From assembly GCA_012295275.1 (NCBI GenBank), contig CM022671.1, positions 18,538,001-18,602,000 of the forward strand: DNA of 64,000 nt, given 5' to 3'. The stretch comes from Chrysomallon squamiferum. Taxonomy: Eukaryota; Animalia; Mollusca. A program made the position numbers and the translations under genes. This document shows, piece after piece, positions 2,917 through 45,791 of the stretch; the stretch's first letter is position 1, and each line of letters starts with the position of its first letter. The notes under the pieces are model-generated. The model did not search any database. It worked only from the letters and a program-made list of their open reading frames with translations, and was not told the DNA's origin.

Positions 2917-5381
2917 TTACACAAATTACCATGACATTTTCCCAACCCCATCAAGCAAACACATAGTAAACGAACTGGCTTAAACTTTCAAATCTGATAT
3001 GCAGTCATAGTTTAGAATGAAACATTTGCGAAACAAAAATCTGAAACATCACTGATATTTCAGAACAAGACATTAGTTCTGAGATGTTGAGATATTTCAG
3101 AAGGATACAGTTGCTGTACAAGCCTGCTGTGATGAATTTAATTACCTTGTTGCAGCTAATGGTAAAAACAAATTTAAAATTCGTGCAGCTGTTGTTACAG
3201 AGAGATGAAGAATCAGAAAATGTCTCCACTGGTATTAAAAGGATTATTGATAAATGAAACAGATGCAGATTTTCAAAACTATGTTTTATGTAACTTACAG
3301 ATTTTTGTGACAAATGGTTTTTGAAATACATGTTACTCATTTGATAGGTCTAAGCTGGGATTCACTGAAAGGAATAGATTTTCTTACTACAATGCACACA
3401 TGTTATTTATCTATAAATATACTTTCTTATTATAATGCATAGCCTATATATTATTTATATGTAAACAGACTTTCTTATTATAATGCATATAGAGTTGTGT
3501 TTATGTAACTCAATTTTCTTGTTGTAACTCATGTATTTTCTTATTTAATTCATGTAATTTCATAATTAATGCAAATATTTTATGATTTTTAGCTTATAAA
3601 TTTCTCTTTTTTTTTATCTCAAACATTTTCATAATTTAATTCATAGATTTTCTTATTTCAGTTCATGTAAATTCTTATTTTAACTGTTTCATTTCCTTAA
3701 TTTAACTTCAAATTTTTACTCAAATATGTTCTGAAATATTTGAAGTAAAATGTATTCTTAAATCTCAACTTGAGTTCTTCTGAACTGTTTTTTATATTCT
3801 GTCAACTCCTGGAACGTTCAACAAACTATTTCTTTGCTTTTTGCTATTCTTTTTTTTTCCTCAATGAACATTTGTAGAGTTTGTTTAAATGTCAAAGCAA
3901 ATATAATACATATTTTATGACGGTTTCAGTTACATACATGTACATGTGTAGATGTGAATTCAAACTATGTTGTATAAACCAGATAATCAATATATATACA
4001 TATAAATTTCAAAAATTTAAAAACATTTTGCTATAATTTTTCTTCCAAACAATTTGAAAACTAATCATATTACATTTCTTATTTTTCCTTATGATCTTTA
4101 TATATCTCTGTACAATTGTTGCAATTAATAAATATACAAATATACAAAATGTTTTAGGAGCTTATTAACAAATATACTGAATGGAAATGTAAAATTAAAT
4201 AATAATACTTACATTCTACATTATCATCCATCTTTTGATTTCAAAGCACACTAATTATCAAAATTAATAAAAGCTAGTTGTAGTAATATGTAAGACAGAC
4301 TGACAGTTTTTTCAGAACAATGACAAATGAGGAAGAAACTGGGTGAGCATCATTTTAATAAAATTTTCACTTCCTGTTCGACTTGATTTCTGTTCCTAAT
4401 TTATTCTAGACAAAGGTTTCACTTCTCTTTCAGTAAATATTGAAGTATGTGCAGTGAAAATTAACTTAATGTGCTTTACAAAAATAAAATATTAAAACTG
4501 TTATGCTAAGTTTTATAAACAAAAGAGTAAGACTAATTTTCTTTATATTTGAGGGGAGAATAAAAAATCGAAAAATTAAAAAATTTAGTAAGTTAACCAT
4601 TACTTGTAAGTGAAATAATAATAAAAAATGTTGACAATATTTCGACTGCTTGTTTAGGGTACAAAATGTTTGAAGTTACATAACACTGATAAGCTAATAA
4701 CATTTTGTTGACAAGCTGTCAGTTTTGAGTTAAGACAAGAATGTTTCTTCTTCAGAAGTTGGCCAATAAAATGAACAAAGATGAGTTTATTAAGAGAGAT
4801 AAATATGGTTGTATATCAACATTTATCTTTATAATAGCAACAAACAATATATAATACTGTTAAATTTTAAGAAAAGAAAGAAAGAAAGAAAGAAAGAAAA
4901 AGAAAAGAAAAAAAAAAAATATATATATATGTTTATATATAAGCCTTTGGTGATACAAAGAAATTGTCTAAATATGTTCTACATACTTCCAAGTTCTGTT
5001 TCATTTATATTTTGCTATCCAGTCTTAATTAATAATGAATTAATACAACAGAAAACAGATTTAAAATATCAGGAAGCAGTCATTTTTTTGTAATAATGAT
5101 ATCATCATTAACAGGATGCAAAAATTTGTTCTAAATTTAGTTTCATCTTGTACATTGAGAAATTATTACAGCTATCAATCCTCATGACATTATGACTGCA
5201 CTGTTAGGTAGTAAAACGGCAGCAGTCATATCTTTAGTCAAAATATTATTTCATTTTCATGCAAGTAATGACAGACCATCGAAAAACAATACAATAATAA
5301 TTTAGAAGTACGAAAGATTTTTATGAGACCTTTCATTCATATCACCAACAGTATATTATAAAGATGTAAAACAAAAATAAC

Positions 5382-6913
5382 CTGGATGTTTTTTGTCGAC
5401 TTCCGCTATAAACTGAGCTGAGTTGAGATCTTGGAGGAGCTGATCAAGCTCTGTTAGGTTGCTGCTTAGTTGTGACATTCCTTGCTGGTGACGACCTTTC
5501 TCGGGAAATGCGTCTGAACTCTGAGATGTGTCGGAACCCGGAGTCGTTTCTCTCATACGGAAATTCTGAGGCTCGTAGATTGGCTGGAATGAAAAAAAAA
5601 TCATTTCTTTAATGATTTAAATTTTAAAAATTTTTAAAATTTAAAAAAAAAATTAATAACATTTTAAAAAAAAAAATAAAAATAAAGAATATGTCAGTGA
5701 TAACAGGCACAGTTGTAAACGAAGGAAAGAAAGTAAAATTGTAAGCTGTGAGAGTCCATGATATGTGTTTTTGCAATCAGAAAATACAATTACAATGGTA
5801 GAAAATACAACAGTGCAATGTGTGAAATTACTATTTTTCTCTTCTGTTATATGATGCACTTTCCAGTATTATAATTAATGTAACATAATGAATTTAGAAC
5901 TTGAAAGGATAAGATAATAGTAATAATCAATTATAAATCTATATAATTATATTTAAAAAAACTGAAAGAAAAGAAACAGGATGCAAAGAAAAAATAATGA
6001 CATTAATATTACCATTGTAAAAAGATATTAAATTTAAAAAAGGAATTAACATCACAACACATTTTTCACACTGATATTCATTAACATTCTAAAAAAACTT
6101 TTTTTTGCTAAATATATTCATAAACATATTTAAAACCCCAAAAATTATCAAACAAAGCAATTTGATTACACATTTTCAATAATTTTTTTTTAAATTTACT
6201 CACTTCTTATTCTTACAACTGATGTAAAAATTCCAAGAAATCAACCAGGATTAGCGTACCAACTAAACCAGTAGGCTAATACCACTAAACCAGTAAACAC
6301 ATTACTCCATCAAAAAAACACAGTAAACAGCTCTGTATGAAATAAACCAATAAACAGTACTAAACCAGTAAACAACACTTTATAATCCAAACCAATTAGC
6401 AGTACTAAATGAACAAAACAAATAAAAATATTAAATGAAGCAAACCAATGAAGAGCGTTGTATGAACTGGTCAACTTCCGTATGTTAAAAGCACACTTAC
6501 CTAAAACTACCACTGCACATGTGAAAGTCTTACTTGAGTGCCACTTAATGATACATCTACATGAAGATGTAAACATGATGGCGCTTACTTCCTGTACGCC
6601 AAGCACAAACTTATTAACAACTGAGATAAGACAGGCTTGTCGGGTTTCAAAGCAAAATACCTGAATCTTTAGTCACTTCATAAATTAATTTTAAATTTTA
6701 TTACTAATAAATGTGATTATTATATGATGATGATGAAATACACTGATCACTTTAGTCATAAATTATTTTTAAATTGTATCATTAATATCATAAATGTGAC
6801 GATAATAGTAATACAATAACAACAATAATAATAAACATTACTCTCAGTTTAGTTAGAAATTAATTTGTATATTTTATTATTAATATTGTAAGTGTGACTG
6901 TATTTATCATTAC

Positions 6914-9738: not shown

Positions 9739-12700
9739 ACCTTTCTTTTTGTCTATAATTAAACTATTAGGGTTTTGCTCTAATATATTTGAACAATTAA
9801 TAATCAGGCTAATTATTATCTAACATACCAACTGTGTTTGAGATTAAAAACTGAAGAAATTTTTTGTTCTTCAATCACTTTGTTCAGTGAAGTGTAATTA
9901 GAATTGGATCCTCTAAGAAAAAAAAAAGGGGAAGATAATAATGACAGGTTTCTTGGAATTTTATGTTTGGTTCTGACATAAAGCAACAGTTGTCTCAGCC
10001 AGCTTCAGTTAAGTTTTAACAGGTGAACATCCAAAATAAACATTACATGTTCAAATTGGCAGGTGTAACAAAGTTAACTGAGAAACTAAGCTAATTAATG
10101 TTACTCCAGAAAAAAAGATTTAATTATCTTACAAACTAGTATGGTTCGAAATATATTAATAACAAGCTGATGCAAAATTTGGAATTTATTTGATTCCTTT
10201 TTATTAAATACCTTCAGTTTTTCATAAACCAGAATCAAAGCTAAATTTTCATCCATAACTGAAGATGAAAGAAAAATATAAAAAATCACCATTTTTCATA
10301 ATTATTACATTCCAAATCTTGGCAAATGATTTAGGGGAGGAGAAGAAAATATACTGACAAATCACTGACCTGATCTATCACTCTGGGTGGGGGTAGGCTG
10401 TCTAGGACCTCCTGGGGTGGAGGAGGAGGAAGGGGTGGTGTGGAGCTGCGTGAGTCTCGCTCAGAAGCGGAGCTGTCGCGGTTGTTGTTGATCACAACGG
10501 GTGCAGGCTGGCTGATAGTGTGCTGGTACGTAGATATATGAGCAGTGGTTGACTGCAAATCAGCAAGCAGAGCATCTGGAACAAATTAGAAAAAAAGACT
10601 GAGTACAATGTAAACAAACCAACTGTGTATTTTTCTTCTGGAATTGCTTATTGCCTTCCTTGACATACTTAATGCAATAAATTGATTTACAAAAACAAAC
10701 ACAAGAAGAAAAAAAACAAAAAAAAAAACTATATTTTTTTCCCTTTACAATAAATATATTCTCATCTACTTGAGAATGGTAGTCATTAAGCAGTTAATAC
10801 TAAGGAATAATTCTTTAGAAGATAAAAATAAATAAATAAATAAATAAATGAACATACATAAAAAGAGGACTGAAAAAGAGGTTTCTTGTACAAAAATATT
10901 TCAAATGAAAAACCAGATTCAAAATATATTATTTCTTAACAACATTTATATATCAATTTGTATAAATTTAACAAGCTCATAATTTTGATTTTGTAACATT
11001 TACACTGATATCAATTCTCAGATCTGATATATTCATTTTACGAGACAAGAAAAGTAGTAAACAACAAATTATCAAGATTTATTCTTAAAAAGTTGAATAA
11101 ATAAACAGAAAATAATTATTTTTTTATTTTTTATTTTTTTTAAATTTAATAACTCTGAGGTAACCCAGTTCTACTGATCTGACAGTTAATGTTTACAGAA
11201 AGTATAAAAACTAAATGTCTTTTTCAGTTTAAGTATACAGTGTAAATTTCTGGTGTGAGAAGGCAGTGATTTTACTGATTATCCAGCAAAGTCTAGAGCA
11301 ATGATAGAGATTGATATCACATGGCGAAAAAATATAATTTTTATTCTAATTTTAAGTCTGGGTGGTGTGTTATAAAACACATTAAAAAAAAAATTTAATA
11401 ATAAAAATAAAAGACAAACATGAAATTTAAACTATTAATTTTTTGAATATGAAGATATGAAATAATTGTATCAGAATGTAACTATTAGCAATAATGATAA
11501 TGATGATAATAATAATAATAATAATAATTAAATTATTAAAAAAAAAAAAAGCATTTTAAAATAATTCAGATAGAAGATATTTCTATCTGGTTCAGTATAT
11601 ATGTTCTGCATGTCGAATCAGTGACATCATTAACAACCAAAATAAATCTTTAATGGTCACCTGTAATTTAATTAATTTTCATTCTTAATGCAAAACTTTG
11701 GAATATCCAAGTTCATATTATCCATTTAAAATAAAATAAATATATGATTTGTTTTGGTTATGGGTTTTTTTTGGTATTCTTATCTTTGTAACATTCAGTT
11801 TCCTATTATTATCCTATTTCAGTCTACAAAGAGAGAAATAGTATTGTTTTCAATATGCCTAATAACATTTTGTTAATTTATTAGAAAATACATGTTGTTT
11901 GTTTGAATTTTTTGGGGGAGGGGATTTTCCTGGTTTGTTTTTTTCAGTATTCATATCTAGAGAACTTTGGAATATTCATTTTCTTATCCTGTTTCAATCC
12001 AAAAAGAAAGAGATAGTGTTGTATTTGATATCTATTAATTTCTAAATAAATATATGTTTGTTACTTTAGTATTTTTTATCTATGCTTCAGTTGTGTAACT
12101 ATCCTATACTACTGCATACAATGCAACTGAATACATCGCGGAGAAATAAAAAATATATAAATGGGAAGGCTGTTTGTGTTGAATATAAAATATGCTTGGC
12201 ACACAATGTATGCAATGTACCAGTGGAATATACAGTTGTAAACAAAGGTTGTTCAGCAGGTGTCTGTTTGTATACGTGGTTTGTTCTGGAAAGGTTACCT
12301 TTATATATCCATGTACTAGTTATTTTATTTATAAATTTTTATTTCATGGACCAGCAAATTTCTGTATTTATAATGATATTACATGAAGTACAAGATAAAA
12401 TTATAAATGTTTAAAATGTAAATAAAATATTTCTGCAATGTATACATTTCTAATTATGTTACTCTGGAAATTTTTGCTTAGGATACACCTGATACATGGT
12501 GAAAATAAATCTAATAAAGCTCTTAAAAAAGGATAAAAAGAGAGAGCATACTGACTCATTTTTTAAATTTTTTACCTTAATTAAAATAACAAACAATAAA
12601 TAAATCTGAAAATAGCCTGTTCTGAATGTTAAATAGTCATCTAAAATGCTTTTAACAAACAAACAAAGAAACAAAAATCATTTTGAAATCTGCATACAAA

Positions 12701-19971: not shown

Positions 19972-20457
19972 TTATAATATAATGCATCCAGTCTTTTCTT
20001 TGAAAGGATTCTTCTCGGGCTTGTTAGGTCCATTTAGGAATAGATTTTCTTCACAGTATTTGACTAAATCTTCTGTCACTTGGGATATTTTCATGTGCAT
20101 CACCTGAGACTCACAACGTAGCTGTTCAATCAGTTGTCTCTGCTGTTGTATGTGTGCCTCCAGTTTGTCAGCTGTAGATAGATAGATTGATAGATAGATA
20201 GATAGATAGATAGAGAGAGAGTGAGAGAGAGAGATTTTAAATAACTTTAGTTATATTTAAAAGAAAATATCAGATATGCATCCATATTACTGCTATTGTT
20301 TTATTCAGCAATAACAAGAAACATTTAATAAAAATGAAAGAGTAAAGTTATATTTAGTTATTAAACATTTTCGTATAAACCTATGAAATTAATTATAACA
20401 TCATAAATATCTCTAGTTATGTCAAATTATAAACATCAGTCTTTCTCATTGTGAGAT

Positions 20458-20899: not shown

Positions 20900-22362
20900 A
20901 ATGTTGATGGCGGGGTTACGACTGACGTCATTACTTTGTGAGTACATATCTCTACTTTAGAAGGACAGTGAAAGGTGGTTATTTTAATTTTAAATATAAA
21001 ATCATGTCGACATGTAGCCACATTAAAATAAATAAAAATAAATAAATATTAATAAGCCGAATAAACAATAAAAGCTACATTACTGGTTTTTCCATTGGGA
21101 GTCAAGATGAATAAATTCTTTCCATTTCCAACTCTTGAATACCAACACAGAGCTGGCCATGACAGAAGTACTGATATATACATTTCAAGTATTTTATGAT
21201 TATATAAATGTAATAGTTATTATGTTTCCAATTATTTTTTAGTCAAAGGATAAAAAACAAATACGTGCTGGTTTTCCTATTGTTCTTAATTACATTTTTC
21301 TGCCCAACGAAATGATTACAATTTTGGGCGTAATATTAGGACATCTAACGTTTTTAAATTAAAGAAATTACGGAAACTCGTGGAAACTGATAAGCCAAAG
21401 ATGAGGTTGGACACCACTTGAAGTTTACATTTGTACCGAGGTCATCATTTGTCTTCAAGTACTGGATTGCCAAGAATATTACACTGATTTATTTATCCAC
21501 TACTTCGGATATGCTTCCAATTAAAATATGTATTTATTTATTTATAATAAATCGCTTTGATGTATATGCATAGCCCCGAATATCATTGTGATGTGAGATC
21601 AGATATTATATTGCAGTATATCGCAATACAGTTTTCTCAATATGTTTAAACGAATAGTTACTTACATCACAAATTTAAACACTTGAAAGAAAACAAAAAT
21701 GATAAATGGATCTTCATCCAAGTTATGTTGTTCAGTCTTATTTCTCCCCCCCCAGTTACTGCATATACTATCAGTTAAATATTATGATGGAAGACAGGAT
21801 TTTTAAACTTTTTATTTTTTAAATGTCTTTTCTATGTGTTTTTTTTTTTTTTTTTTATTGAAACAAGGAATAGGAAAATGGATATTGGAGTACTCTTAAT
21901 TATTTTTTCACGTCATTATCAGTTTATCCTTTCGCTTGTACACAATTTATTTATTTATTTTAATCGGAAAAAAAAAAAAAAAAAAAAAAAAAATAAAAAT
22001 AAAATTATCGATAAATGAACTTTCATTGATTGACCATTATTTGTTATGTGGAAGTGAGAACTGATTGGTTTTGGGTAAACCAAATGAATGTACAGTTTAT
22101 ATTCTACGTCATTGCTTTCTGTGTCTTTCTTTGCATCACGTGATACGCAATAGGGTTACCTTCATTATGTTTATATTTATCTTTAATTATTTCAATTTGT
22201 AAATTTTAATTATATTCGCTTAATTATTTCAAAATAAAAAGCGCGCATTTTTATATTTAATTAAAAAAAAAAAAAAAATTAAGTAAACATTTTACTGTAT
22301 TATTTATGAAAAACAGGAAAACGATGGATATTATTTAGAGCGCCATATTTGATTTGAGCAAA
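20900..22362. promoter_or_regulatory. Divergent (head-to-head) intergenic/promoter region between the G-gamma gene and the Ice2-like gene
   Basis: CpG-retaining interval between oppositely oriented start codons. It has a perfect CRE palindrome TGACGTCA at 20923-20930, YY1-like GATGGCGG (~20906) and CGCCATATT (22341), and a candidate minus-strand UTR-exon donor gtaagt at 21665. Confidence 0.5.
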
Positions 22363-25300
22363 ATGTTTTGCATTGGTCCGTGTTTATGTTTCATTGAGTT
22401 TCTGCCATATATATGTTTAGTAACACTGCCATTTTATGGTGCATTTTGTGGCGTTGATGTTATATTACGACTTTCGCTGCTACTGTATATTCATTCTGTA
22501 ATTATCAATTACGTACCCAAAGTTCTGGTAAGTTCACTAAACCTTGCCTTCGGGTTACCAAAAATCGGGCTATAGGAATGTTTTCCGAATTCGTGTTTTT
22601 TTCATATCAAGTCAGTTTGAAAAAATAATATCCAGCTGTATTAATTTTAGTAAAGAAATCAAAATACAAAATATTTAATTTTATCGTCAGTATATTCCAT
22701 AGTGTACCAATAATTATGGTGCATTTCAAAATGCAATTCGCATAAACGTTTTCAGTTTTAAATGTGAACTTTTTGATATTATAAATTTAAGTGATAATAT
22801 AATGCAGTGTAAAATAATGTAATATAATATAATTTAATATGTATCCATTTATTTTCAGCTTTCTGTGATTCCTTACCTACAGTTCAGTTTATTAGTTGGT
22901 CTCTTATTACTGCCAATCAACCTGACACCAGGACCAGTAATTTGGATCTATGATAAATTAATATGGCTTGCAGAGCCACTGTTTCTTTTAGCAGAGGTTG
23001 TCCTGGCTCTAAACTTTGTTATGCGTTGCAGTCAGCGTGTAGCTGATAAAATTGAAGATGATGATGAACATGCCCCAAAATGGAAGGTAAGGGTTTACAA
23101 ATTTCTATGAAAGATTTCTGTGTGAGAATTATTGATTCTACCAGACCCCCAATCCTAATTCTTATCATGAAACAGAACATACTGCTAAACCTGATATCAG
23201 AATTAACAACAGTCTAGACAATTTCCTAACAATATTTTTTCTTTCATTTTTTTTACTTGTTAAAATGAAATAAAATAAGTAGTTAATTGGTTAAACATTT
23301 CCATATAGTAATGGTGTCATTCCACTTAGATTACTTCCAGTTACTATAAAATATAAATATTACTAAGTATCAATAAAAATATAACTGAATTAATACTCAG
23401 TAATGAATTTTGAATACAAAATGAATAATTACCAATTTATTACATGTATATATATATATATACAGTTCTAACAACAAACAGTAAATGGCAGATCAGTTGG
23501 ATCACAATTTATTATTCACTAATTCTTTGTTATATTGATGCACTGTATATTTGATTGCGGCTAGGAAATCAGTTGCAGAATATGCACCATCCTTGAACAG
23601 TTTGGTCAGTCACTGATGAATACATTCATCATAGTGATGGTATTTCTTTCTTTTTCTGTTTTTAAAAAAATTGTTTAAGTATATTATTTTTTAGATTTAT
23701 CTGTTTCATTCTGCTGTAACTGTATGCAGGAAGCATTATTGCATCATATTAATTGTTATATATCTACATGTATGTCATAGTATAAATGGAAGATGTCTAA
23801 GAGAAATGAAACCATAACTATAAGTAGTGGAACTTGGTTTGTATCTTTCCCATAGCATATGTGTGTTGAGTTTGGGTGGATTTTAAAAAAAATATTAAAA
23901 GTTTTATAAGTTTTAGAATTTACAAAATATTTAGTGGCTGTTTACCATTTTCAGGTTTGTTAATATTTCTGTTTCAGGCTGTTGTCATCCTTTTTTCTCT
24001 CTTTTGCTACTTCATCAGTGTTTTTCTCATTGTCAACTTTTGTTATGAATCATCTCCCATACAGTTATGGTAATAATACATTTTTTCTTTTGATTTTTAA
24101 CTACTGTTGAAACTATACACATTCATTGAAACACACACAGAATTCACAGCAGCATTATCAATATTTTAAATAATGCTTAAATTACATTATTTTAAAATTT
24201 GTTACATCTGAATCTCTATAATGACATCAGTTTAATACAAACAAATTATATACAAATGTTAAAACAGTTTTATAGTGCAAAATTTCACAAGAATTGATTT
24301 TGAATTAGGTTTATTAAATTTAAGTTGTGATATTAATCTATGTTTTATTTTGTAACCTCATGTTTTGAATGTTAATAAGCGTAACAAGTGTTTTAAATAT
24401 TTGTGATTACTGTCATGTTAACAGCCTAAACAATATGATATTAAATATTTTGAATATTTTATTTTGTAATGTCATCTTTGTCATGTTAATCACAGCAAAT
24501 AATGTTATTTTGAATATTTGTAGGATTTTTTAAATGGTTATTGTCACTTTAACAACTAATAACAATATAATTTTAATTTTAAATAGTTGTAGATTTTTTT
24601 GGTTGTTATTGTCATGTTAACAACTTGTAACAAAAAAAATGTTCAGTTTATATAATATTTTATTTTTAAGGTTGGTGTTTGTAGTTATGGTTGTGTTAAT
24701 AACAGTACACAATATGATGTGGATGGCTCCCCAAGAAGGTTGGTAATCTAATGAAATGGCTACTTTAAATTAAAATTGTACCTATATGTTAAAAGTCTTG
24801 TGTAGTTCTTTAATCAGGAAATTATCAGGAAAAAAATGAATAGTGTTAGGATCAAGTCAATATCAAGTCAAATAATTTGCAGTTGTTCCTTTTACCCACT
24901 TGTATGGAAATTGCAGAATTATTTTAAAAGATAATTTTTTTTTTCCCTTCATATTGAAAGTATCAAATACTAACAAATAATTAAGAACACTGACACAGTT
25001 AGGCACAGCCACACGTTATTAGTCAACCAAAACAAACACTTTGATGTAATATTTAAGTTAATGTGTCATTTTGTTTTTGTTTTATTAAAGTGTTATTTTA
25101 TTAGAGTGTTTACATTCTTGATATCAACAGATACATGTTTTAATTGAAGGAATCCTGAGTGATGCTGCTTTCTGCTGTCTGTGTAGTATGGTCGTCTTGT
25201 ATGCCATGATGGAAGAAACACAACAAGTTCAGCATCCACTTAATGTACCCTCAGCATGGAACAAGTAAGTGATTCAGTTGTGTTTTTCTTCGTCTTTTTT

Positions 25301-27416
25301 AAAATACTTTTTTAACAACTTACCCCAACTTTTTGTGTGTGCTAAAAACAGAAAAGTATATATAAGCAGAGATTAGTGGAAAATAATGCTGTGTTTCTGT
25401 GCTTCTGTGTTTATATATATATATATATGTTTCATAGAAACACAATATTATTATTCATTAATCTCTACAGATAAATACATTTTTACTCTATTTCATACTG
25501 TTCTTTATTACAAGATGTATTTATGATATATTTTGACATCACAACATGTAATATGTACTATGAATTGTATAAATATATTGCCATAAATTGAAATAAATGT
25601 ATATATGTTTTTGTGTGTGTGTGTGTAGACACCAATGCAAATTTTATATTAAACTGCATTCTCCAAAAGACCAGATAATTGGTATTTGTATTATTTAATT
25701 ATTTTGCAGGTCATACAGCAAATCATTTGTTGATGTTTTCTGCTCTATTGTTAAAATGAGTCCAGGTAATTATAAGGGGTCAAATATTCCATATCTGAAA
25801 TTACCCAGTAGTGGTTATATTTTGTAACTAAATAATCTATATCATCAGTGTTCACACCCCCACCCCAAAAACCCCCAACAAAATAATAATTTCTATTTCT
25901 TTTATTTTTTATTATTACCATATGCATTACTTATTTATTATTATTATTTTTTTTTTTTGCCAGTTCAGCCATTATTATTTCCAGAGACTATTAAAAATTA
26001 TTTGAAATTTATAGATATTATTAGTCTTATTTCTATTTTTAAATCCACTTAAATTTCTGTAGCTTTGTATTTATTTTGTATATTAGAGTAGCCCTGAGTA
26101 AGTTTCAGTATCTACGTGTTTCATTAGCTCTACAGTTTATTTTATTAGGTTCCACTAGTTTTTTGTTTCTTAGCTATCTATCATTTTTCAGTATGTTCCA
26201 CTAACTCTATATTCCATCTAATATGTTTCACTAGATTGGTGTCTTATTTTAATATTTTCCACTAGTTCTGTAATTTCTTTTAATGTTTCAATAGCTCTTT
26301 ATTCTTTTTTAATAATTCAGTATTTTGTTTTGATATATTTCATTAGAACTGGATCCTGTTTTATTATGTTACCTTGTGCTGGATTCTGTCTGTTTCACCA
26401 GTTCTGTATTCTTTTAAAATATATTTCAGTAGCTCTGTATTTTAATGTTTCATTAGCATGGTATCTAATATATTTTAATTTTCTGCATCTATTTTTATAT
26501 ATTTCACTAGTCTAATGTAGTTTATTGTTTCACTAGCTCTGTAATTTATTTTAACATGTTTTATAGCTTCCTAATTTAATTTAATGTTTTCTCTATAATT
26601 TATTTTAATATATTTCATTAGCTAGGTAATTTATTTTAATGTTATCCTAACTCTGGAATTTATTTTAATGTGCATCATTATCTGTCATATTTTATTGCTA
26701 GTTCTGTATCTTATTCTGATGTTGCTGTGTATTCTATTTGAATGTTATAGAGGGTGCTTTAAAGGCTGTGCTGTTTATTAAGAAGTTCTTCTCACCATTC
26801 TTCCTCATAACAGTCAGCATTCGACTTTACAGTATCCTCTTTATTGTGGACAGAATCACAAAGAACTTTTTCCAAGATCAGGTAGACTATAATCTAATTT
26901 TATTTATAGTGAGATAGTAAAGTTTATGGAGTTGTAGTTTTTAATTTTGTAATTGTTCTAAGCTGCACATTAAATCTGTACTAAATAAATAAGTTCATAT
27001 GGCATTGTTAGCTGATGCAACATATCAAAATGCAGGATCTAATATTTCAGCACATTTATTTATTTATTTTTAGTGTTTTTAACATTTTTATTAACTATTT
27101 GCAGGATGATCTCGACTTTTTAACAGATATAGATGAAGCAGAGTTATCTTACCTGTCACCATGGAAATCTCCACTGATTCTTAAAGTTGCTGTGATATTT
27201 ATGCTAACTCAATTAACCACTGTATACCTGTCTGAATGCAGTGGTCTGTTTCTCAACAAAGTGTCATGGTTGCCTTTTACAGGAACTGTTTGGCCAAGGG
27301 AAATAATTCTTGGTCGCTTGTTACAAATAGCTGCGGCTAACTGTTTCTATATGTGGAGGTTATATCGAGCAGACGACTGGACTTGGTCTGAATGGCTTAG
27401 TTTTGATGACAGATAA
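22363..27416 (+). CDS. Multi-pass (~10 TM) membrane protein, 388 aa, Ice2/SERINC-superfamily-like; exons 22363-22527, 22859-23086, 23978-24069, 24671-24738, 25150-25264, 25710-25765, 26751-26881, 27105-27416
   Basis: Eight exons with GT-AG introns and matching phases (0,0,2,1,2,1,0) give an open 1167-nt CDS with about ten hydrophobic segments. Motifs AEPLFLLAE, EGILSDAAF, SPFFLITVSIRLY and SPLILKVAVIFMLTQL parallel yeast Ice2p as recalled. The gene structure is high confidence and the family call moderate. Confidence 0.85.
24330..24720. repeat. Degenerate 63-79-bp tandem repeat running into exon 4 of the Ice2-like gene
   Basis: Motif tgtcatgttaac.....acaatat and variants at ~24411, 24479, 24542 and 24610, with a related copy inside the exon at ~24689. 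Confidence 0.6.
26050..26750. repeat. Degenerate ~32-bp minisatellite in intron 6 of the Ice2-like gene
   Basis: Many copies of tttca(c/t)tag(c/t)tctgtat....ttttaat up to the exon 7 acceptor. Confidence 0.75.
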
Positions 27417-29204: not shown

Positions 29205-29990
29205 TCATCTGTGAGTATTTCTTTTCTTTTCTTTTCTTATTTTTATTAAGCCAAATTTAATGTCTTTCTCCCATTTTTTTCTATACATGGCATACAATTT
29301 CATCGCAGCCTGTGAATCTTGAACCTATAATAAAAGAATGAAATCATTATTTTGCATTTATAATCAAATTCTCCCAGTCAAACTGCTTCTGATCATCTTA
29401 AAAAAATAAAAAAAAAAAAAAAAAATAAAATAAAAAACGAACAAACAAAATAGTGATGTTAAAATGCTGTGCTTAAAAAAAAACCCCAAAACAACTAATA
29501 TGTATAATAACTGGGTTTTCTCTGTTATGTATCACCATTATAGTTTATATAAAAACAATATCACTGATATAAAGTAGCCATCTATATCAGAATAAAATTA
29601 GATGCCAATACACTAAAATGCATTAATTTACTACAGTGTATTTGTAATTCACAAAGAATAACTTGTAAAACTCACAGAGTCATGTTCACCAGCCTGTACA
29701 CTAACTCCTAGCAGTTTTTGTGTAAGTTTTTTCAGTGATGGAGTTTTCCCTCCAAATAACTGTCGAAATGGTTTATATGTAGAAGTGTCCCGTATCATTT
29801 TCCTTGGATGATCCAGAAAGAGCACCTATTTGTTAAAAAAAAAAGATTAAAAAAAGAAAGATAAAAAAAGAGAATGGAAATTAGCATCAAAGTGATTAAA
29901 TGTGATACATAATCACCTAACAGTAAATTGAACTAACAGAAAGTTCCCAATTTATTACTGTGAAAGGTTAAACTTTGTGAAAGTAATAAA

Positions 29991-30111: not shown

Positions 30112-33003
30112 TAATTATACTGAAATTAAAAAGACCTTTATCACACTACCTTCAAATCATTGGATAAAGCATGACCCACAAGCATCCTTCCTTTCATAAT
30201 ATTACAGACATCTTTCTGTACAACACTGAAATCTTCCGCTGTCATAAATAAATTAGTGTCAGTTTAAAATGCATAGTTGGTGAAATACAGTTTCACAAGC
30301 TTTTGAAACTTAGAGTTTTGGCTTCAAATTATGCACTGTACTGTAATACTGTGGAAAATGTTTTGAAAGATATGTTTTATATACAGCATAAGAACATTTA
30401 AAATATAATTTAATGTATTTTGAACATGTCCCAATCTGTTTGATCAACGAGTTACCTCCCTTTACAGTTAATTTAAAAGTTAGCATTTACTAAAACAGTT
30501 TGCCAAGTAATGACATTACGTTAACATAAAACAAATATCTTTCTGGATTTCAGTTTAAAAATAAAATCCCAAAATGTAAACCACTGAACTTTTTCTGAGA
30601 GAAAAAATTAGATACTTTTTTCTGTCTCAAACTGAAAATGACCAGAAAATAAAGTAAAACAAATAATTACATGAAATATTTATTTAGCATTCAACCTCTA
30701 GTCTTTCATTCAGCTGTATCCATCAAAGGCACTTTCGTTTTTTTCTTCTTTTACTACATACAAGAAAATAAGCTAAAAGTGAAACCAAGGACTATTATTC
30801 ATATAATGTGCTGTTAAACTGTAACTTACCATTAACCAAATGTTCTGGAGTCACTCCACTGACAAATGTCCTGTAATCAACAACATCTTCTTGTGGTTTC
30901 ACGTACTTGTCATAAACACAGTTGCCGTACTGGTTCACTATGGAAACTCTTGCCAGTATGCTCTCTTTTCCCTCTTCTCCCACTCCCACCATCTCGCAAT
31001 CCATAGCCACTGCTTTTGTTAAACTACATTTTAACAAACAAATTCAATATAAAATGTAATGGATCTAAAACTCATTAACCATCAACAGCATAAAATCAAC
31101 ATAAAATTAGTCCTGCTCAACACTTTCTGACTATCAAGTGAATTTTATTGGCAAACATTTCAATCTGTTAACATCTGTACTTAATAAAGTTTTCAATTTA
31201 ATTTTGTAAAATGATTTACATCTACAGATATCACATTTGCATTGTTACTACAATATAACATTTAATAAATACATGTAGAAAAAAAAAAAAAATAATAATC
31301 TAAATTACATTTTAATTATTAGTGTATTTTTATTATAATAAACAAGAAAATGAAATTCATCATTTAACAAAATTTTAATTGTTTTTTCTTTAAGATTCTT
31401 AATATGATTTAGATATGAAGCAAAGAAACAAACAATACCCTGAAAATGTGCCAAGCTTCACAAGGGGATTTCCCTTTTCTTCTGAAGCTTTCTTTTCCTG
31501 CAGTCCTTCAACAAGAATCTCATCAACATCATCAAACCAAATGTCTGGTCTTTAAAAATTAAATACACAAATAAATTATATGTTTTTATCAGATGCATAA
31601 ATATATGGTTCTAAGTATTAAATGTAAGTACTTTTTTAAAATGATATTCAAAAAGAAATTTAAAAATGGTTTATTTTTAATTTTAATTTTTTATTAATTT
31701 ATTTTAATTTGATAAAAAATTTATAAGATATAAAAGTGAAATTTTTGTTTCTTTCTGCAGAAAAACTTTATTAAGTCCAAATATTCAAATATTCATAAAT
31801 GAACAATATTAATTTACATTAAACATGTGTACCTGGATATAAATATACTATGTATTCTGATTTTTGTTTTTAATTTCACTTTTTAATATGTTTATAAATG
31901 TTTTATTAACTCAAAGAAGTGAAATTGAACACAAAATTTAGGATACATAGTACATTTATATCCAGATAAGGTATTAGTTTCACAGTAAGTTATAACATTT
32001 AAATTATAACCTGGTTAACAAAAACATAAAACTACAATTAATTATTCAAAAATTCACACACTTCTGTTTTTGTTCAGTTGATTCAGTTTTTGAAGTTTTT
32101 ATATTTTCGGATGCAAATTTTTCCCTTTTGTTGATAAAATATTTTTTCTTTTTGTGTCCACCATCTTTAGCATCTTCAGAAGATAGCTTTCGTTTTCTGG
32201 TGACATTTTCTTCTTTGTTTTTCAGAAGGAGCTTAAAAAATGATTAAGCTAAAGATGACTCAACAAGTATTTTGTTTTCATTATCTTAATAACCAAACAA
32301 TAATACACAAGGATTCAAATCTTTTCTGTGTCTCTAATTTATCATAAGATGGATAAATTAATATTTAATATTTTAAATATAAAAATAAATATCTGACATT
32401 GTTATAAAATATTATATATATTATAATTAAATTAATTTTTAATATTAAAAAAAAGAACAAAAGAACAGATTGTATTGATATATTCTGGTACTCAAAAGAA
32501 TAATTAAAAAAGCCAATACCTCCAATTTTTGCATTGTTGTATCACAAACCACTGCAATCATTAAATGGAAAAATGTATATTAATCATTACCTGTTGAAAA
32601 TTCATCCAATTTGAAGAAACATTCTCAAAAATGTCTTTCTTTAATTTATTCTTATCATTTTTCTTCTTTTTTCTGAAATGTTTGCCATTTTTTTTATCTT
32701 CTTGATGCTTTTCAGAACTGTTTTGCTTTTGACACTTTGCTAAACTTTCTCCATCAGAATCTTTCCTTTTATCTGACAGAATGTTTGAATCACACTGATC
32801 ATTTGTCACATTTTTTTAACCTGCTGACTAGGAATATTTGGTTTTGTATTAATGCTTTTAGCAGAGTCTGATTTATTATTTATTTCACTGTGGTTCTTAG
32901 AATTTTGCATCTGGTTCCGATGCAGACGTCTCCTTTTCCACCTACTGATTTTACTTTCTGATTTTGAAGTTTTAGTGGTCTTATCTTTTTTGTTTTTAGC
33001 CAT
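29205..33003 (-). CDS. REXO4: RNA exonuclease 4 (DEDDh family); coding exons 32591-33003 (apparent 1-nt frameshift at 32811-32817), 32062-32231, 31439-31549, 30830-31023, 30150-30238, 29676-29825, 29205-29324
   Basis: Lys-rich N-terminus, then [71 protein letters not shown] and [16 protein letters not shown], all REXO4 motifs. Introns are GT-AG with consistent phases, and AATAAA follows the stop. Confidence 0.95.
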
Positions 33004-39398: not shown

Positions 39399-41494
39399 TC
39401 ACTTCAGTATTGTTGTAATTAAAACCTGGAGAATAACTACAATCACACAGCACAGAGTCTGCCGAGCTTTTGACGCCTGGGTGTGTTTCGTCTGCATGTT
39501 CCATTTTGGAATGGTTTCTTTACTTGCTTCAGTAACTGGAAAATAAATAAATAAATAAATAAAATAATAATAAGAATAAAATTTCAGATAAATGGAAAAG
39601 AAAAATGGATATGAATGAATGGATAAATAATATACAATGCATATATAATATTAAAATTTTTTTTTAAACAAAATAAAAATAAAAAAGAGGAAAAGAAACG
39701 AAGCAAAGCAAAATTAAAGAAAACATAATTTTTTTTATTTTTTTTTATTATTATTTTTTTACAGGAATCTTTTAACTTCGATAAAGAGTAAAAGAAAGGG
39801 AAGTCGAAGTTAAGAGACTCCCAGGACAATAATAAGATGCAAAATGTTTATAATTTGTTTTGTTTTGTTTTATATCTCTTTTGTCTGCAGGTGTCTTACC
39901 TGGCCACGCTGTATTGATTTGTAATACGTCACTTACAGCAACGTCAGATACGGCGTTGTGCACAATGACGCGCACATAGTAAACCACGTCGTACGTAAGA
40001 TTTCCTAGTACTGTCCAGTGGCGATTCGTTACCGGGAGTGTTCGTTGCCAGTTGTGATCTTCTTTGTTGTGAAAGGTGTGTTTAAAGACAGAAAGAGAAG
40101 GAACAGTTTGTGAAAAAAAGAAAAAAAGAAAATAGAAAGAACCAGAAACCTAGAGAAAGATAAAATAGGTAGTTGTCCTCTGTGTTGTGTGTTTGCCTGG
40201 TTTGTTTGTTTGATTATTGGTTGGTTGGTTGGTTTATGCATATATCCTTTAATTTATCACTGATTATTTTCGTATAAAATATTTTCTATTAAACTTTTTA
40301 TTCTTGTAAACGAACTGAAATAAAAATTTTAACAACACCTCAAAACATTATAATTATATAACGTTGAAATGGTACAGGAAGTCATTGCCGCAGTACGCTG
40401 GCTACTCTTGAAAAATGAACAAGAGTTCTTGTGTACGCTGCCTCCCATTACGACAACGATTTTTGAATGGCTTGAACTTGAAATAACACAAACTCTAGGT
40501 CATACAAAAAGTAGGTTTGTAATTTTACCGCCGTTTCTATAATACGTTCAAAACGTATTTTAAAACATGTTCTTCTATTTGTTTAGATATTAATTAAAAA
40601 ATTTCCAAATAAAATAAAATTCATTACCGTTTTTATATTCACTTTCTGTCACTTTAGATAATTCATAACTATTTTGATTTTTTCTGTTAATCTACTGAAT
40701 AACGTAGAAGGTTGATGATTTACCAGATGTTTTGAATTCTACATAATACTGCAAATGCGGTGTTTTATCGGTCGCCAACCATGTAATATTTGCAGTTGTA
40801 GGTGTATACGTCACCAAATACACTAATGGTGCAGTCGGTGCTATTAAAGAAAAATAATTACAACTGGCTAAAATAACACGTGCAATAAAAATAAATAAAA
40901 AGCATGAGAGAGAGAGGAAGATAAAGTGGAAAACAAAAGATAGAGAAATAAGTAAAATAACGAAATAAAATTTCTTCAAAAACCACCAGAAGGATTTTTT
41001 AGAGAAACGTGGAACTTCAAGCAAGGAGCATGTTAATGACATTTCTTTCACCTTTGTCGTGGTCGAATGACAAACAGTTGCAATGTTTAGACAATCTCAT
41101 TTTGTATAAACTTTGTCAATGCTTTTTAAATCAAAAGAAAAAACTGTCTTCATAATTTGTTGTTGTCTACTGTTAGAGTTTAACATGAGAATCTGAATAG
41201 TTTTTGGACCTATTTTTCTTTTATTATTATTATTATTATTATTATTGTTATTATTATTAATCAATCACTGCAAATACTTAAAACTTAATTAATTCAATAC
41301 GTACGTGTTCCATTTACTGTACGAATATCAACAACGTCTGACGCACCAAGTCCTACTTTAGTCTTTGCGGATACATGGAATCTGTAGTCGTGATGAGGCT
41401 GCAATCCGGTTATTCTTGCGCCGAGTGTGGACGGATTGTTGATTTCTGGGTGCAACGGGACTACTGGCCCCAGACTAACGTTTACAACTAAATG

Positions 41495-41534
<40 letters not shown>

Positions 41535-42556
41535 TGATGATGATGATGATAATAATACATATAATAATAATAATAATAATATTAATATTAATGATGATGA
41601 TGATGATGATAATAGATATAAAAATAATAATAATAATATATGTCTAACTATCTATCTATCTATTTTAAATGCAACGTTTAATTATATATTTTTTGTCTTA
41701 AGAAAATTACCTTGTTGGTAGTCTATATGGTAACCAGTGAGAACTCCGTTTGGTTTCTCTGGAGGCAACCATTTCAGCAGTACGTATGTCATCCCAACAG
41801 ATTCCGCTCTGAGTTCCCGAACCTTTTCTGGAACTAAATAATTACATATTTCGTTTTAGAACCAATCAACCAACCAACCAACTAACCAACAAACAAACAA
41901 ACAAGAAAAAAGAAATTGAAAAACTAAGGAAAAAAAGAATGCATTAATAAATAAGTAAATATTATTACTACTACTATTACTCATACTACTGCTACTGCTA
42001 CTAGTAACTCATTATTACGTAATCAGTTTTCATCGTACCATGAAATTATTCGTATAGATATTTATTATCATTGTTCCATTCTGATTTCGATAATTTTATA
42101 ATTTCATGTTTTCATTATGCTGAAAACTCACCTCCTTCCGGAACGAAGAAGTCAATGATTTGACTGGGCGGCCCCGAGTAGTGCGTGTTTATAACCACCA
42201 CCTGCGCGCGTATTGCTGTGTACGACGGCAAACCGGAAATAGCTGCCCTCACATCCGGTTCGTTTTTGTAGTTCTGTGGTACTATTACGTCAATTTGTTT
42301 CATCTTGTGTCGTCCTTCGCTTGACTTCCAGTACTGGATCTAAAATAGTCAAAGAGATTAAGCATAATTAGGATAATTGTATAAATGCGGCCGAACTATT
42401 TTTCCAGTTTAATTTCATCCGACTGATATTGTTTTCTTGTCGGATATATAATGTTATAAAGCATATAGGGCCAAATTAAATGTGAATTAACTTTTCTTTC
42501 TGAAATATATTGTCATCAACTTACACTGTAAGAGAATACACTTGTTTTTAGTCTCG

Positions 42557-42610
<54 letters not shown>

Positions 42611-45406
42611 CCCACAGAATAAGCAAACAAAGAAACCCCCAAATTACTGATTATTTTTCATAAACTGAAAAAGGTATCTGTGTTGATATAATACTATGTA
42701 CAGAGTACATATAAAGATTATTTTATATACTGAACTGTGGGTTATGCAGGTGAATCGAAAACTGACACTCCCGAAATCTGATGCGTCGATGATAATGGTA
42801 AGGTACTGTATCTATGTTACATAACAATATAGTCACTTTTAACAGCTTATACTATATCAATATAAAAAAATAAAATAACATTTTAATGAAATTATTTTGT
42901 TCGGCTTCTTCTAGGATATTAATATAGCAAAACAAAGTTAAATTTAATATTTCACCCTGTATCCCTGGAACTGTCCACGTATTTTACCAGCCGAGTTTTC
43001 CACAGCTTCCCAGATGAAGTGAGCCGTGCTTGGTGTGAGTGGTCGACTGCGGTCAAGTCGAAAATCTTTTGGTATTACAACCGGCTCTGTAATGAAGTTA
43101 AAAAAGGGTTACAACGAACCAGTTTTTTGACGAGTATGAAAACATCATCAATAAAAATCAGCAATTCCAGCAAGGTCTCTGCATATTGTATTATCTGCAG
43201 CTATTTGTTGTTTGAAATGGTTTACTGTCTACGGTCAAAACAAATATTCAGTACGTTACCATATCCTTTTATTTAAATGATAATGGTGTATATATGATAT
43301 TGACTTTGAATAAATATATTCAGAAAATAAGCACACAGAAGGAAGACTGGGGAACTAGACGTACTTATTTTGTACCCATATACCTGCAGTTATATTTATC
43401 TGTGAATATAGGACGATATGGTCGTACATAGGACTAACCATACAGCATGCATAATCATTTTATTTTGGATTTTATTTTATTACAATTAAATAAGAAGTGA
43501 AATAGCCGAATAAAAATTATTACACAATACGATTAAATATTAAATATCTATTTACCTGCTTCACCGGAATGACCTTTAAATACAAAAGCTGGTTGATGGG
43601 ATTCACCTAGATCATTTTCAGCTTTTACGCGTATGTCATACAATCCAAACACGTCCTCGACGTCAATGACAAAGGAGTCGGCGTCTGCGTCATTCTGGTA
43701 TGCTGAGTTCCAGTACATGCTGGAACTCTGTCGCCAAAATACATGATAACGGAAACCTGGACCATGGCGATATAATCGTTCCATCGGCTAAAATAAAGGT
43801 TAAAAAAAGAAAGGTAAGGAGAGAAAAGAAAAGAAAGAAGGTAATTAGAAAACAACAGCCTGTCGTTGAATACTGAATATTAGAGTCAATATGATATGAG
43901 TATAATGCGTTACAGATTAATATGATTTGCAAAAAAGGAGAGAGCACACAATTGGAATCATTTTATAAAAAAAAGAGGAAAATCCTTTCGGACACTTTTA
44001 TTAAAAATGTATATCAAAACACATTCACAATATATATACAAATATATCCATATTACCACCCCTCCACCATCCCATAACCTCCAAAATCCCGCACAAACAA
44101 AACAAAATAAAACAAAACAATACGTAGGCCTATACTAAAAATCACGTTCACTGAAATTCATATAATAATGTAAGCAAACAGTTCTATAAATCAATAAAAC
44201 GTGACATTTGTTAGAATTCAATAGTTGTTATTAAGTGTAACAGGAAGTCGTGTAACTGCGCCAAACACGCTATTTGTTAATTGGCCTTGTCCTTGGAAGG
44301 ATCAGTTTAGAAACAATTTTCCTTAGAGATAACGTTAATATTACAGTCATCCGTCAACCTGACTATGCTGTATAAAAGCGTTCGGGTCTCGTAATAAGCG
44401 AATACAACTGGCTTGATAAATATGAATTCATCTGTATTTGTTAAGACTTTATTTGAATCCTATGAGATTTGTGGTCAAACTTCTGGGCACATTAACGTCA
44501 ACAAAAGTCTATATATGGATAATTCTGACCACATCTCGATTCCGGGTCATTGGTTGGAAAGGGAAATAGACTGAAAAGAATCGATTATGCCATCAGGTGT
44601 CAGACAAGAGAGACTAGTATTAAACCCCATAACTACATGTTTTATAGTTAATTCGTTGTTTATTTATATATTTATGACACAAGTATATCTATAATTTTAA
44701 AAATAGAACAAAGGTTTTACCTCCCACACAATAACCAGTTTTCCCTTTTGATCCGTTCGCGCATGAACATTTTGGGGATTCCGATCAGGTTTATCCGGAG
44801 GCGCTGAACACGTTGTTGACGTCACATTACTAGGTTCGCTTTGCCCAGCGCTGTTGTAAGCAATAACTCTAAAGGAGTATGTTCCCCAGGGCGAAACCGT
44901 TACCAGGGCGTTGGTAGTTTCTCCGCCAAAATATTCAGAATAGTCGTACCATCTGTCTGGTTCGTAGGACGTGTTAAACTGCACCGTGTACTCTCTAATA
45001 GGGGATCCATGCTCGTCTCCCGGGTCCCACACCAGTTCTGCTGACTGCCCGTGGCAGCTGATAAGTTCGAGATTCTGAGGTGGCTCTGGTTCACCTTAAA
45101 AAAATAAATTAAAAAGTCTTTTTTTTCTTCTTTAAAATTAAAAATAAAAATACTAACATAACAAAATATGAGTCCTTTTAGAGTCAATACAAACAGACAC
45201 TTACATATATAGAAGCTGACAAGTAAAAACAGAAACACATGAAAGTTAATGTTGAACTAAAGCGTGTGCAAGTAGTAAAGCATATGGATAGTCAGAAGTG
45301 AAAAATGAATATATGAATTTGGACAAAGTTAGATACGACACTTCGAGAATTTTAATATTGATAGATTTGGTAGAATCAGTTTCAGTAATGTAAAGAAGCA
45401 TTTTCC

Positions 45407-45437
<31 letters not shown>

Positions 45438-45741: not shown

Positions 45742-45791
<50 letters not shown>

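What the first reader, a model, noticed from the sequence alone, without database searches (positions are those of the whole stretch)
22363..27416. Intron-rich animal gene resembling fungal Ice2 (SERINC superfamily)
Seen: a 388-aa protein with about ten hydrophobic segments. By-eye comparison with yeast Ice2p, recalled from memory, gives colinear matches: AEPLFLLAE vs STPFFTLSE, EGILSDAAF vs KGSVIESSLF, SPFFLITVSIRLY vs SPAIVINLCFRVL, SPLILKVAVIFMLTQL vs SPCILIAMYTHL. Known: Ice2p is an ER protein that restrains the Nem1-Spo7/Pah1 (lipin) pathway, is related to SERINCs, and is usually discussed as fungal. Inference: an uncharacterised metazoan Ice2-type regulator of ER/lipid metabolism. Seven introns and a CpG-depleted body suggest an old, constitutively expressed native gene rather than contamination or recent transfer.
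Basis: partly seen in the sequence, partly recalled or inferred. Interest (0 to 1): 0.72.

Follow-up and report, generated by a model that had tools for sequence, protein, structure and literature searches.

The report
Snail member of animal Ice2-like family
This is a real, spliced snail gene whose membrane protein is predicted to share the fold of the SERINC lipid-flipping proteins and likely belongs to an already reported but never tested invertebrate family related to yeast Ice2, so it likely handles lipids in the ER membrane.

Summary
The gene is real: 8 exons, seven GT..AG introns, 388 aa. It aligns without gaps at 81% to an uncharacterised Gigantopelta aegis protein, and RNA contigs show intron 1 spliced out and exon 2 running into exon 3.

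The Ice2/SERINC link holds. An AlphaFold2 model of that orthologue (pLDDT 89.7) has ten membrane helices with a 43-residue crossmember. Its only clear structural match is SERINC (Z 18.0, next 7.7). ESM Atlas features rank fungal ICE2 clusters above SERINC.

It is not a new discovery. Alli-Balogun and Levine (2021) described an Ice2-like 'intermediate family' in invertebrates and amoebae, and the relatives found here (molluscs, brachiopod, annelid, echinoderms, amphioxus, corals, chelicerates, amoebozoans) match that range. The gene tree follows animal groups, so the gene is native.

Function is untested, and my searches found no experiment on any animal member. Most likely it is an ER lipid-binding or lipid-flipping protein (about 0.5). 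Direct braking of CTDNEP1-NEP1R1/lipin, as yeast Ice2 does to Nem1-Spo7, is the interesting rival (about 0.25) and could not be tested here. Verdict: new member of a known, unstudied family; interest 0.33.

The parts
22363..22527 (+). Exon 1 (aa 1-55): Cys-rich N-terminus, TM1-TM2; not CpG-depleted
   Evidence: helices from model
22859..23086 (+). Exon 2 (aa 56-131): TM3 and the 43-residue crossmember helix TM4
22994..22996 (+). Codon for E101 on TM4, the best-conserved residue (E in 56 of 57 rows); inferred counterpart of Ice2 E158 and Drosophila SERINC Q181
   Evidence: literature numbering; register inferred from F-x3-E spacing
23978..24069 (+). Exon 3 (aa 132-162): TM5
   Evidence: RNA loose end from exon 2 reads into it
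24671..24738 (+). Exon 4 (aa 162-185): TM6
25150..25264 (+). Exon 5 (aa 185-223): conserved G185..D189 and TM7, start of the TM7-8 loop
   Evidence: G 56 of 59 rows, D 46 of 59
25710..25765 (+). Exon 6 (aa 223-242): amphipathic helix in the predicted lumenal TM7-8 loop
   Evidence: hydrophobic moment 0.59 for 11-mers at 223 and 229
26751..26881 (+). Exon 7 (aa 242-285): second loop helix and TM8 with R266
   Evidence: R 47 of 55 rows
27105..27416 (+). Exon 8 (aa 286-388 + TAA): short acidic TM8-9 loop, TM9 (T320, Q321), TM10 (R356, Q359, Y367), Trp-rich tail

Best explanation
This spliced, native gastropod gene encodes a 388-aa protein predicted to have the ten-helix SERINC fold; it likely belongs to the published invertebrate/amoebozoan Ice2-like 'intermediate family' and likely works in the ER membrane as an ATP-independent phospholipid binder or flipper. 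Predicted by the model of the 81%-identical orthologue: ten membrane helices including a 43-residue TM4, superposing on SERINC3 nearly end to end. Shown by alignment: conserved polar residues inside TM4, 7, 8, 9 and 10 (E101, S188/D189, R266, T320/Q321, R356/Q359/Y367). Inferred: these line the cleft between the two helix bundles, where SERINC3 is reported to hold lipid headgroups; the protein sits in the ER like Ice2; and by moving or presenting lipids there it would help set the balance between membrane growth and fat storage. Confidence is about 0.9 for the family call and about 0.5 for the mechanism.
For: Fold: VIA-align over 48,161 chains gives 7rug SERINC3 Z 18.0, rmsd 5.1, 276 aligned, model 12-377; it is the only chain with Z >= 8, next is 7.7. 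7ru6 Z 17.1 (rmsd 4.9, 275 aligned) and 6sp2 Z 16.8 (rmsd 5.8, 297 aligned), next 8.1. Foldseek ranks 7ru6 and 6sp2 first and second with probability 1.00. Model pLDDT 89.7, pTM 0.88, helix 81-123; SERINC3 has a ~40-residue crossmember H4 (PMC10359404 passages). Ice2 side: Atlas features give the nearest cluster 30% PF08426, then fungal ICE2 clusters at 0.88/0.86 for P0001, and 0.90/0.87 against Serinc 0.76 for the starfish member P0028. The TM8-9 loop is short and the TM7-8 loop carries an amphipathic helix, as the paper describes for Ice2. Family: 140 hits at E <= 0.001; the 18 named among 30 looked up are invertebrates incl. Branchiostoma, two amoebozoans and one foraminiferan-labelled sequence, the range given in the paper. 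Mechanism: purified SERINC2, 3 and 5 flip lipids in proteoliposomes; a simulation preprint puts H4 Gln175 in the headgroup ring (PMC12642633 Results).
Against: Foldseek E-values are weak (8.8e-3, 1.4e-2; TM 0.42/0.50), identity is 10-11% and rmsd about 5 A, and a shared fold shows no function. Scrambling was not reported for Ice2 itself in the listing (10 of 11 papers listed; one opened, as passages). No hit reached the Pfam Serinc cut-off (best 23.2 against 24 bits), and no ICE2 hit was seen in the local Pfam scans. The first half of TM7 has no conserved Tyr, whereas Ice2 Y254 and SERINC Y282 line the cleft. The paper itself warns of repurposing within the superfamily. No C-terminal KKxx ER signal is present (sequence). 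The Atlas notes that scores under 0.9 are leads only.
Confidence: 0.5

Rival explanations
1. It is the functional animal Ice2: an ER scaffold that binds NEP1R1 (Spo7 counterpart), clusters and inhibits CTDNEP1, keeps lipin phosphorylated and so favours ER membrane growth over fat storage. Lipid flipping would be secondary or absent.
For: Closer to fungal Ice2 than to SERINC. Yeast Ice2 co-precipitates with Spo7 and Nem1 and blocks Pah1 dephosphorylation, and Nem1/Spo7/Pah1 are conserved in animals (PMC8591542 passages). One copy per named species in the 47-row tree, which follows animal groups, and a CpG-depleted body fit a housekeeping regulator.
Against: No binding evidence. Similarity to Ice2 is too remote for any ICE2 hit seen in the local Pfam scans. 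No vertebrate member was among the 18 named distant hits or the 22 named proteins, although vertebrates keep CTDNEP1-NEP1R1. PMC11145253 (passage) suggests the human complex may not need an outside inhibitor.
Confidence: 0.25
2. It is a divergent SERINC paralogue that works like SERINC3/5 at the plasma membrane or endosome, for example in lipid asymmetry or antiviral restriction.
For: The fold is SERINC's. Serinc is the most recurrent weak Pfam hit: 6 of 60 members at E <= 1, best 3.8e-5, over Serinc profile positions about 105-298.
Against: All Serinc scores are under the cut-off. The long loop after TM8 and the TM9 histidine that mark SERINCs are absent. Atlas features rank Serinc (0.76) below ICE2 (0.87-0.90). 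The paper says its intermediate family is more SERINC-like than Ice2 is, which would explain the weak hits.
Confidence: 0.12
3. The SERINC fold has been repurposed as a carrier for a small polar solute or ion, using the conserved buried E101, R266 and R356.
For: Charged residues are strongly kept inside membrane helices: E101 56/57, R266 47/55, R356 44/49. The TM7 tyrosines of the SERINC cleft appear not to be kept.
Against: I know of no solute-transport role shown for this fold (own knowledge). No transporter came near SERINC in the fold searches.
Confidence: 0.1
4. The gene is fungal contamination or a recent transfer from a fungus, or the exon chain is a chance construct.
For: None found beyond the likeness to a mainly fungal family.
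Against: Spliced RNA; gap-free 81% orthologue; sister to Gigantopelta at 100/100 inside a 98/97 mollusc clade; flanked by paxillin, G-protein gamma and Ig/Fn3 exons.
Confidence: 0.01

Closest known systems
'Intermediate ICE2-like family' of Alli-Balogun and Levine 2021 (bioRxiv 10.1101/2021.01.08.425964, whole main text read; supplements not seen)
   Same: No annotated domain; 388 aa against seeds of 338 and 395 aa; invertebrates incl. Branchiostoma and cnidarians, plus amoebae; members find each other by one profile; between Ice2 and SERINC, nearer Ice2.
   Different: The paper gives no structure or function for this family. It reports some insect members and one fungal member, which were not among the hits I could name. 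Overlap with its 42 sequences could not be checked.
Fungal Ice2 (Pfam PF08426; S. cerevisiae Ice2p)
   Same: Ten TM helices; F-x3-E on TM4; amphipathic helix in the TM7-8 loop; short TM8-9 loop; no TM9 histidine; nearest named family by language-model features.
   Different: Animal, 388 against 491 aa; no ICE2 hit seen in the local Pfam scans; no conserved Tyr in the first half of TM7; ER location and Nem1-Spo7-type inhibition not shown.
SERINC/TMS1 (Pfam PF03348; human SERINC3 7RU6/7RUG, Drosophila 6SP2)
   Same: Same predicted fold over nearly the whole length (Z 16.8-18.0), with a ~40-residue crossmember TM4 and a polar residue on it.
   Different: 10-11% identity, rmsd 5-6 A, below the Pfam cut-off; lacks the long ICL4 loop that Nef binds; lipid flipping shown for SERINCs, untested here.

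Membership tests
SERINC superfamily (SERINC + Ice2 + intermediate family) | Ten transmembrane helices | tested here: met
   Hydropathy; AF2 model of P0001 shows ten long helical segments plus short loop helices
SERINC superfamily (SERINC + Ice2 + intermediate family) | ~40-residue crossmember TM4 joining two helix bundles | tested here: met
   Helix 81-123, 43 residues; definition from PMC10359404 passages. Bundle membership is inferred from the full-length superposition.
SERINC superfamily (SERINC + Ice2 + intermediate family) | Structural superposition on a solved SERINC | tested here: met
   7rug Z 18.0, rmsd 5.1, 276 aligned; only chain with Z >= 8 of 48,161; 6sp2 Z 16.8, rmsd 5.8, 297 aligned
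SERINC proper (PF03348) | Score above the Pfam Serinc gathering cut-off (24 bits) | tested here: not met
   6 of 60 members hit at E <= 1, best E 3.8e-5 = 23.2 bits; P0001 and the 7 window exon pieces scanned give no Serinc hit
SERINC proper (PF03348) | Long cytosolic loop after TM8 (ICL4) | tested here: not met
   22 residues between helices in the model; span 274-309 has median 32, range 21-53 in 44 rows; feature named
SERINC proper (PF03348) | Conserved histidine inside TM9 | tested here: not met
   No His in window residues 307-324; His in at most 3 of 53 rows among the five commonest letters of any TM9 column; feature named
Fungal Ice2 (PF08426) | Match to the Pfam ICE2 model | tested here: inconclusive
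   No ICE2 row; one search showed 25 of 33 families, none ICE2. I did not confirm that PF08426 is in the local copy. The Atlas (Pfam 38.1) marks 30% of the 141-member nearest cluster as PF08426.
Fungal Ice2 (PF08426) | F-x3-E cleft plug and liner on TM4 (F154/E158) | tested here: met
   F97-x3-E101 on model helix 4; E in 56 of 57 rows, but the F column is L in 34 and F in 8 of 57. Register inferred from spacing and helix number, not from an alignment with Ice2.
Fungal Ice2 (PF08426) | Amphipathic helix in the TM7-8 loop | tested here: met
   Model helices 230-238 and 242-255; hydrophobic moment 0.59 (11-mers), 0.47 (best 18-mer)
Fungal Ice2 (PF08426) | TM7 tyrosine lining the cleft (Y254) | tested here: inconclusive
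   No Tyr among the five commonest letters of P0001 columns 186-202; Y/W at 203 in 45 of 59 rows; exact register to Ice2 unavailable
Fungal Ice2 (PF08426) | ER residence and inhibition of the Nem1-Spo7 (CTDNEP1-NEP1R1) phosphatase | not testable with these tools
Intermediate ICE2-like family (Alli-Balogun and Levine 2021) | Proteins without a known domain that find each other by one profile | tested here: met
   140 hits at E <= 0.001 from a mollusc-only profile; 0 of 35 long hits pass any Pfam cut-off
Intermediate ICE2-like family (Alli-Balogun and Levine 2021) | Range: invertebrates incl. Branchiostoma, plus amoebae | tested here: met
   18 named of 30 looked up, incl. Branchiostoma, Stylophora, Montipora, Protostelium, Vermistella
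Intermediate ICE2-like family (Alli-Balogun and Levine 2021) | Nearer to Ice2 than to SERINC, yet with more SERINC signal than Ice2 has | tested here: met
   Atlas feature order ICE2 0.90/0.87 above Serinc 0.76; weak Serinc Pfam hits. Not a phylogenetic test: no Ice2 or SERINC sequence was held.
Intermediate ICE2-like family (Alli-Balogun and Levine 2021) | Contains the paper's listed sequences (seeds XP_001631941.1, XP_013756618.1; Supplementary Table 4) | not testable with these tools
   Supplement not available; neither seed accession was among the 30 look-ups, which cover only representatives of 50% clusters and their 90% clusters

The most novel reading that the evidence does not exclude
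This family is the true animal counterpart of Ice2: an upstream brake on the CTDNEP1-NEP1R1-lipin switch between ER growth and fat storage, kept from amoebozoans to amphioxus and lost in vertebrates. That would mean the open question 'do SERINCs do Ice2's job in animals?' has been asked of the wrong proteins, and it would explain why the human phosphatase seems to be regulated differently.
Probability: 0.22. Interest if true: 0.65.

Novelty: new member of a known kind. Interest (0 to 1): 0.33.

Why it matters
Two papers (PMC8591542, PMC11145253; passages read) leave open whether any animal protein restrains the lipin phosphatase as Ice2 does in yeast, and both name only SERINCs as candidates. 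This family is the closer candidate. My searches found no experiment on it. The family itself is in print since 2021, so this locus adds a confident SERINC-fold model and a list of conserved residues to mutate, not a new system.

Tried and rejected
Pfam on 7 single exon pieces gave nothing useful. Sequence searches of PDB chains found 0 hits at E <= 10 with profiles A2 and A3 and with P0148 and P0024, so no residue-level alignment to SERINC was obtained.

No fungal Ice2 or SERINC sequence turned up among the hits that were named or Pfam-scanned. About 95 short fragments were neither named nor scanned. The three-family tree could therefore not be built.

The Atlas structure search with its own low-confidence model of P0001 (pTM 0.65) found only the protein's own cluster (TM 0.86); the other rows were at TM under 0.3. 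The Atlas gave no result for the amoebozoan member P0115.

No whole genome is held, so copy number outside the window, and the presence of SERINC, CTDNEP1 or NEP1R1 genes in this animal, were not checked. The journal version of the 2021 paper is not held.

No complex prediction was sent, because no NEP1R1 sequence was available. Scattered single-member Pfam hits (YibE_F, Silic_transp, CybS and others) were rejected as generic hydrophobic matches. An FFAT-like reading of the acidic TM8-9 loop was rejected by eye (poor fit to the recalled consensus, loop poorly conserved). Absence from vertebrates, insects and nematodes is not shown: only 30 of 140 hits were looked up. Two look-ups in earlier findings returned nothing.
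Full report
1. Observation. The gene is in the sequence as described. Eight + strand exons (22363-22527, 22859-23086, 23978-24069, 24671-24738, 25150-25264, 25710-25765, 26751-26881, 27105-27416) are separated by seven GT..AG introns and give 388 aa plus a stop. The translation aligns to Gigantopelta aegis LOC121366798 (P0001, 389 aa, found) at 311 of 386 identities with no gap, and tblastn of P0001 recovers all eight exons. RNA contigs of four runs from one study were laid on 21500-23600 only. Three of four skip intron 1, two of four run from exon 2 into the first letters of exon 3, and intron 1 and the laid part of intron 2 have no cover away from the exon edges. Introns 3-7 were not checked by RNA. 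CpG o/e is 0.26 across the gene against 0.70-1.22 in the 34-64 kb bins. Reading that as gene-body methylation of a broadly expressed gene is general knowledge of invertebrates; I saw only a search listing on it.

2. Relatives. P0001 finds 25 proteins, of which 22 are named, all molluscan. A profile of 22 of them, run on 1.84 billion representatives, gives 140 hits at E <= 0.001, 77 at 1e-10 and 27 at 1e-30. I looked up 30 of the 140, chosen among the longer ones, and 18 carry a name: three echinoderms, a cephalopod, two corals, an annelid, a brachiopod, Branchiostoma, three mites, two ticks, a horseshoe crab, two amoebozoans and one sequence labelled as a foraminiferan. None is vertebrate, insect, nematode or fungal, which is too small a sample to show loss. 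A 47-row tree (fragments and several partial or near-duplicate proteins left out) places the window's protein sister to Gigantopelta (100/100), with Haliotis (97/94), in a 21-row mollusc clade (98/97). Bivalves, heterobranchs, corals and chelicerates form starred groups; deep branches are open and long branches meet. This fits vertical descent. Exon-sized fragments whose best matches are echinoderm or coral proteins often begin near residue 57-60, where exon 2 starts, a weak hint that intron 1 is old.

3. What fold. No Pfam family passes its cut-off. Serinc is the most recurrent weak hit, 6 of 60 members, best 3.8e-5. AlphaFold2 on P0001 with a 60-row alignment gives pLDDT 89.7 and pTM 0.88, with ten membrane helices including a 43-residue helix at 81-123. 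The window's own protein was not folded; the gap-free 81% alignment lets the model stand for it. Foldseek ranks human SERINC3 (7ru6) and Drosophila SERINC (6sp2) first and second, probability 1.00 but E only 8.8e-3 and 1.4e-2, TM 0.42 and 0.39 by query. The search that does not lean on Foldseek gives SERINC3 Z 18.0, rmsd 5.1, 276 residues, model 12-377, the only one of 48,161 chains at Z >= 8. The second look gives 17.1 and 16.8 against 8.1.

4. Ice2 or SERINC. No solved Ice2 structure appeared in the fold searches, and no Ice2 sequence could be fetched. By ESM Atlas features, P0001's nearest cluster (141 members, mostly molluscs) is 30% PF08426, followed by fungal ICE2 clusters at 0.88 and 0.86. 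The starfish member gives 0.90 and 0.87 for ICE2 and 0.76 for Serinc. Scores under 0.9 are leads, and the tool noted that only 6 of the 10 best named hits share a family. Anatomy agrees with Ice2 as described in the 2021 paper: an amphipathic helix in the TM7-8 loop, a short TM8-9 loop in place of SERINC's long ICL4, no TM9 histidine, and F97-x3-E101 on TM4 with the spacing of Ice2 F154/E158. Against: the F column is mostly Leu in the family (34 of 57), and no Tyr is conserved in the first half of TM7, where Ice2 Y254 and SERINC Y282 line the cleft. These registers are inferred, not aligned.

5. What is known. Alli-Balogun and Levine (bioRxiv 10.1101/2021.01.08.425964; all five parts of the main text read; supplements not seen) report 'a previously unrecognised protein family' of 42 proteins without known domains. 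They are mostly in invertebrates including Branchiostoma and some insects, with one fungus and several amoebae, and are closest to Ice2 but more SERINC-like than Ice2. The family found here matches in range, size and position between the two. Supplementary Table 4 would settle identity directly and could not be read. Yeast Ice2 binds Spo7 and Nem1 and blocks Pah1 dephosphorylation; the authors name SERINCs as the possible animal counterparts, untested (PMC8591542, passages). The CTDNEP1-NEP1R1 structure paper repeats this as open and suggests the human complex may be regulated otherwise (PMC11145253, passages). Purified SERINC2, 3 and 5 flip lipids (PMC10359404, passages). A simulation preprint lists a polar ring including H4 Gln175 (PMC12642633, abstract and Results). 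Searches for later work on the animal family (open-access library only) found none.

6. Mechanism. Shown: gene, splicing of the first exons, family, conserved residues. Predicted: SERINC fold. Inferred: ER location, a polar cleft formed by E101 (56/57 rows), D189 (46/59), R266 (47/55), T320 and Q321 (40/53 each), R356 (44/49), Q359 (42/49) and Y367 (46/49), and ATP-independent phospholipid binding or flipping there. I put this at about 0.5. Direct inhibition of CTDNEP1-NEP1R1 is about 0.25, and the two are not exclusive. A SERINC-like plasma-membrane role is 0.12, a solute carrier 0.10, contamination or transfer 0.01.

7. Verdict. The family is already in print, and its function is still untested as far as my searches reach. 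New member of a known kind, interest 0.33. It would rise to about 0.65 if the family proved to be the animal brake on lipin activation.

Noticed in passing
window 19975-20172 (-): G-protein gamma subunit exon (Pfam G-gamma 1.2e-11) ending in a CaaX-like tail; lies divergent from the Ice2-like gene across a CpG-undepleted stretch (o/e 0.59-1.04 at 16-24 kb).
   Followed up: partly
window 10334-10585 and 5359-5616 (-): Paxillin exons (Pfam Paxillin 5.3e-6 and 6.9e-3) in CpG-depleted DNA.
   Followed up: partly
window 30798-31043 (-), with further candidate exons near 29652-29825 and 31402-31551: DEDD exonuclease exon (Pfam RNase_T 3e-7), REXO4-like by recall; convergent with the Ice2-like gene.
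   Followed up: partly
window about 39770-45800 (-): Ig and fibronectin-III exons (I-set 1e-10, fn3 7e-11), L1/neuroglian-like by recall, in DNA without CpG depletion.
   Followed up: partly
window 22363-22400 (+): Cysteine near the N-terminus is kept in 19 of 21 mollusc and 19 of 33 other rows; a possible acylation site.
   Followed up: no
window 27370-27413 (+): The C-terminal tail is acidic and Trp-rich in molluscs (W at P0001 378 and 380 in 18 and 19 of 21 rows) but not in other groups; a possible lineage-specific binding motif.
   Followed up: no
window 22328-22334: RNA contigs of 2 of 4 runs carry a 7-nt insertion in the 5' untranslated part relative to the window; likely allelic.
   Followed up: no
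P0148 (EukProt label Nonionella stella): A family member labelled as a foraminiferan has the strongest Serinc score (23.2 bits). If the label is right the family reaches beyond amoebozoans and opisthokonts; prey or contaminant origin is not excluded.
   Followed up: no
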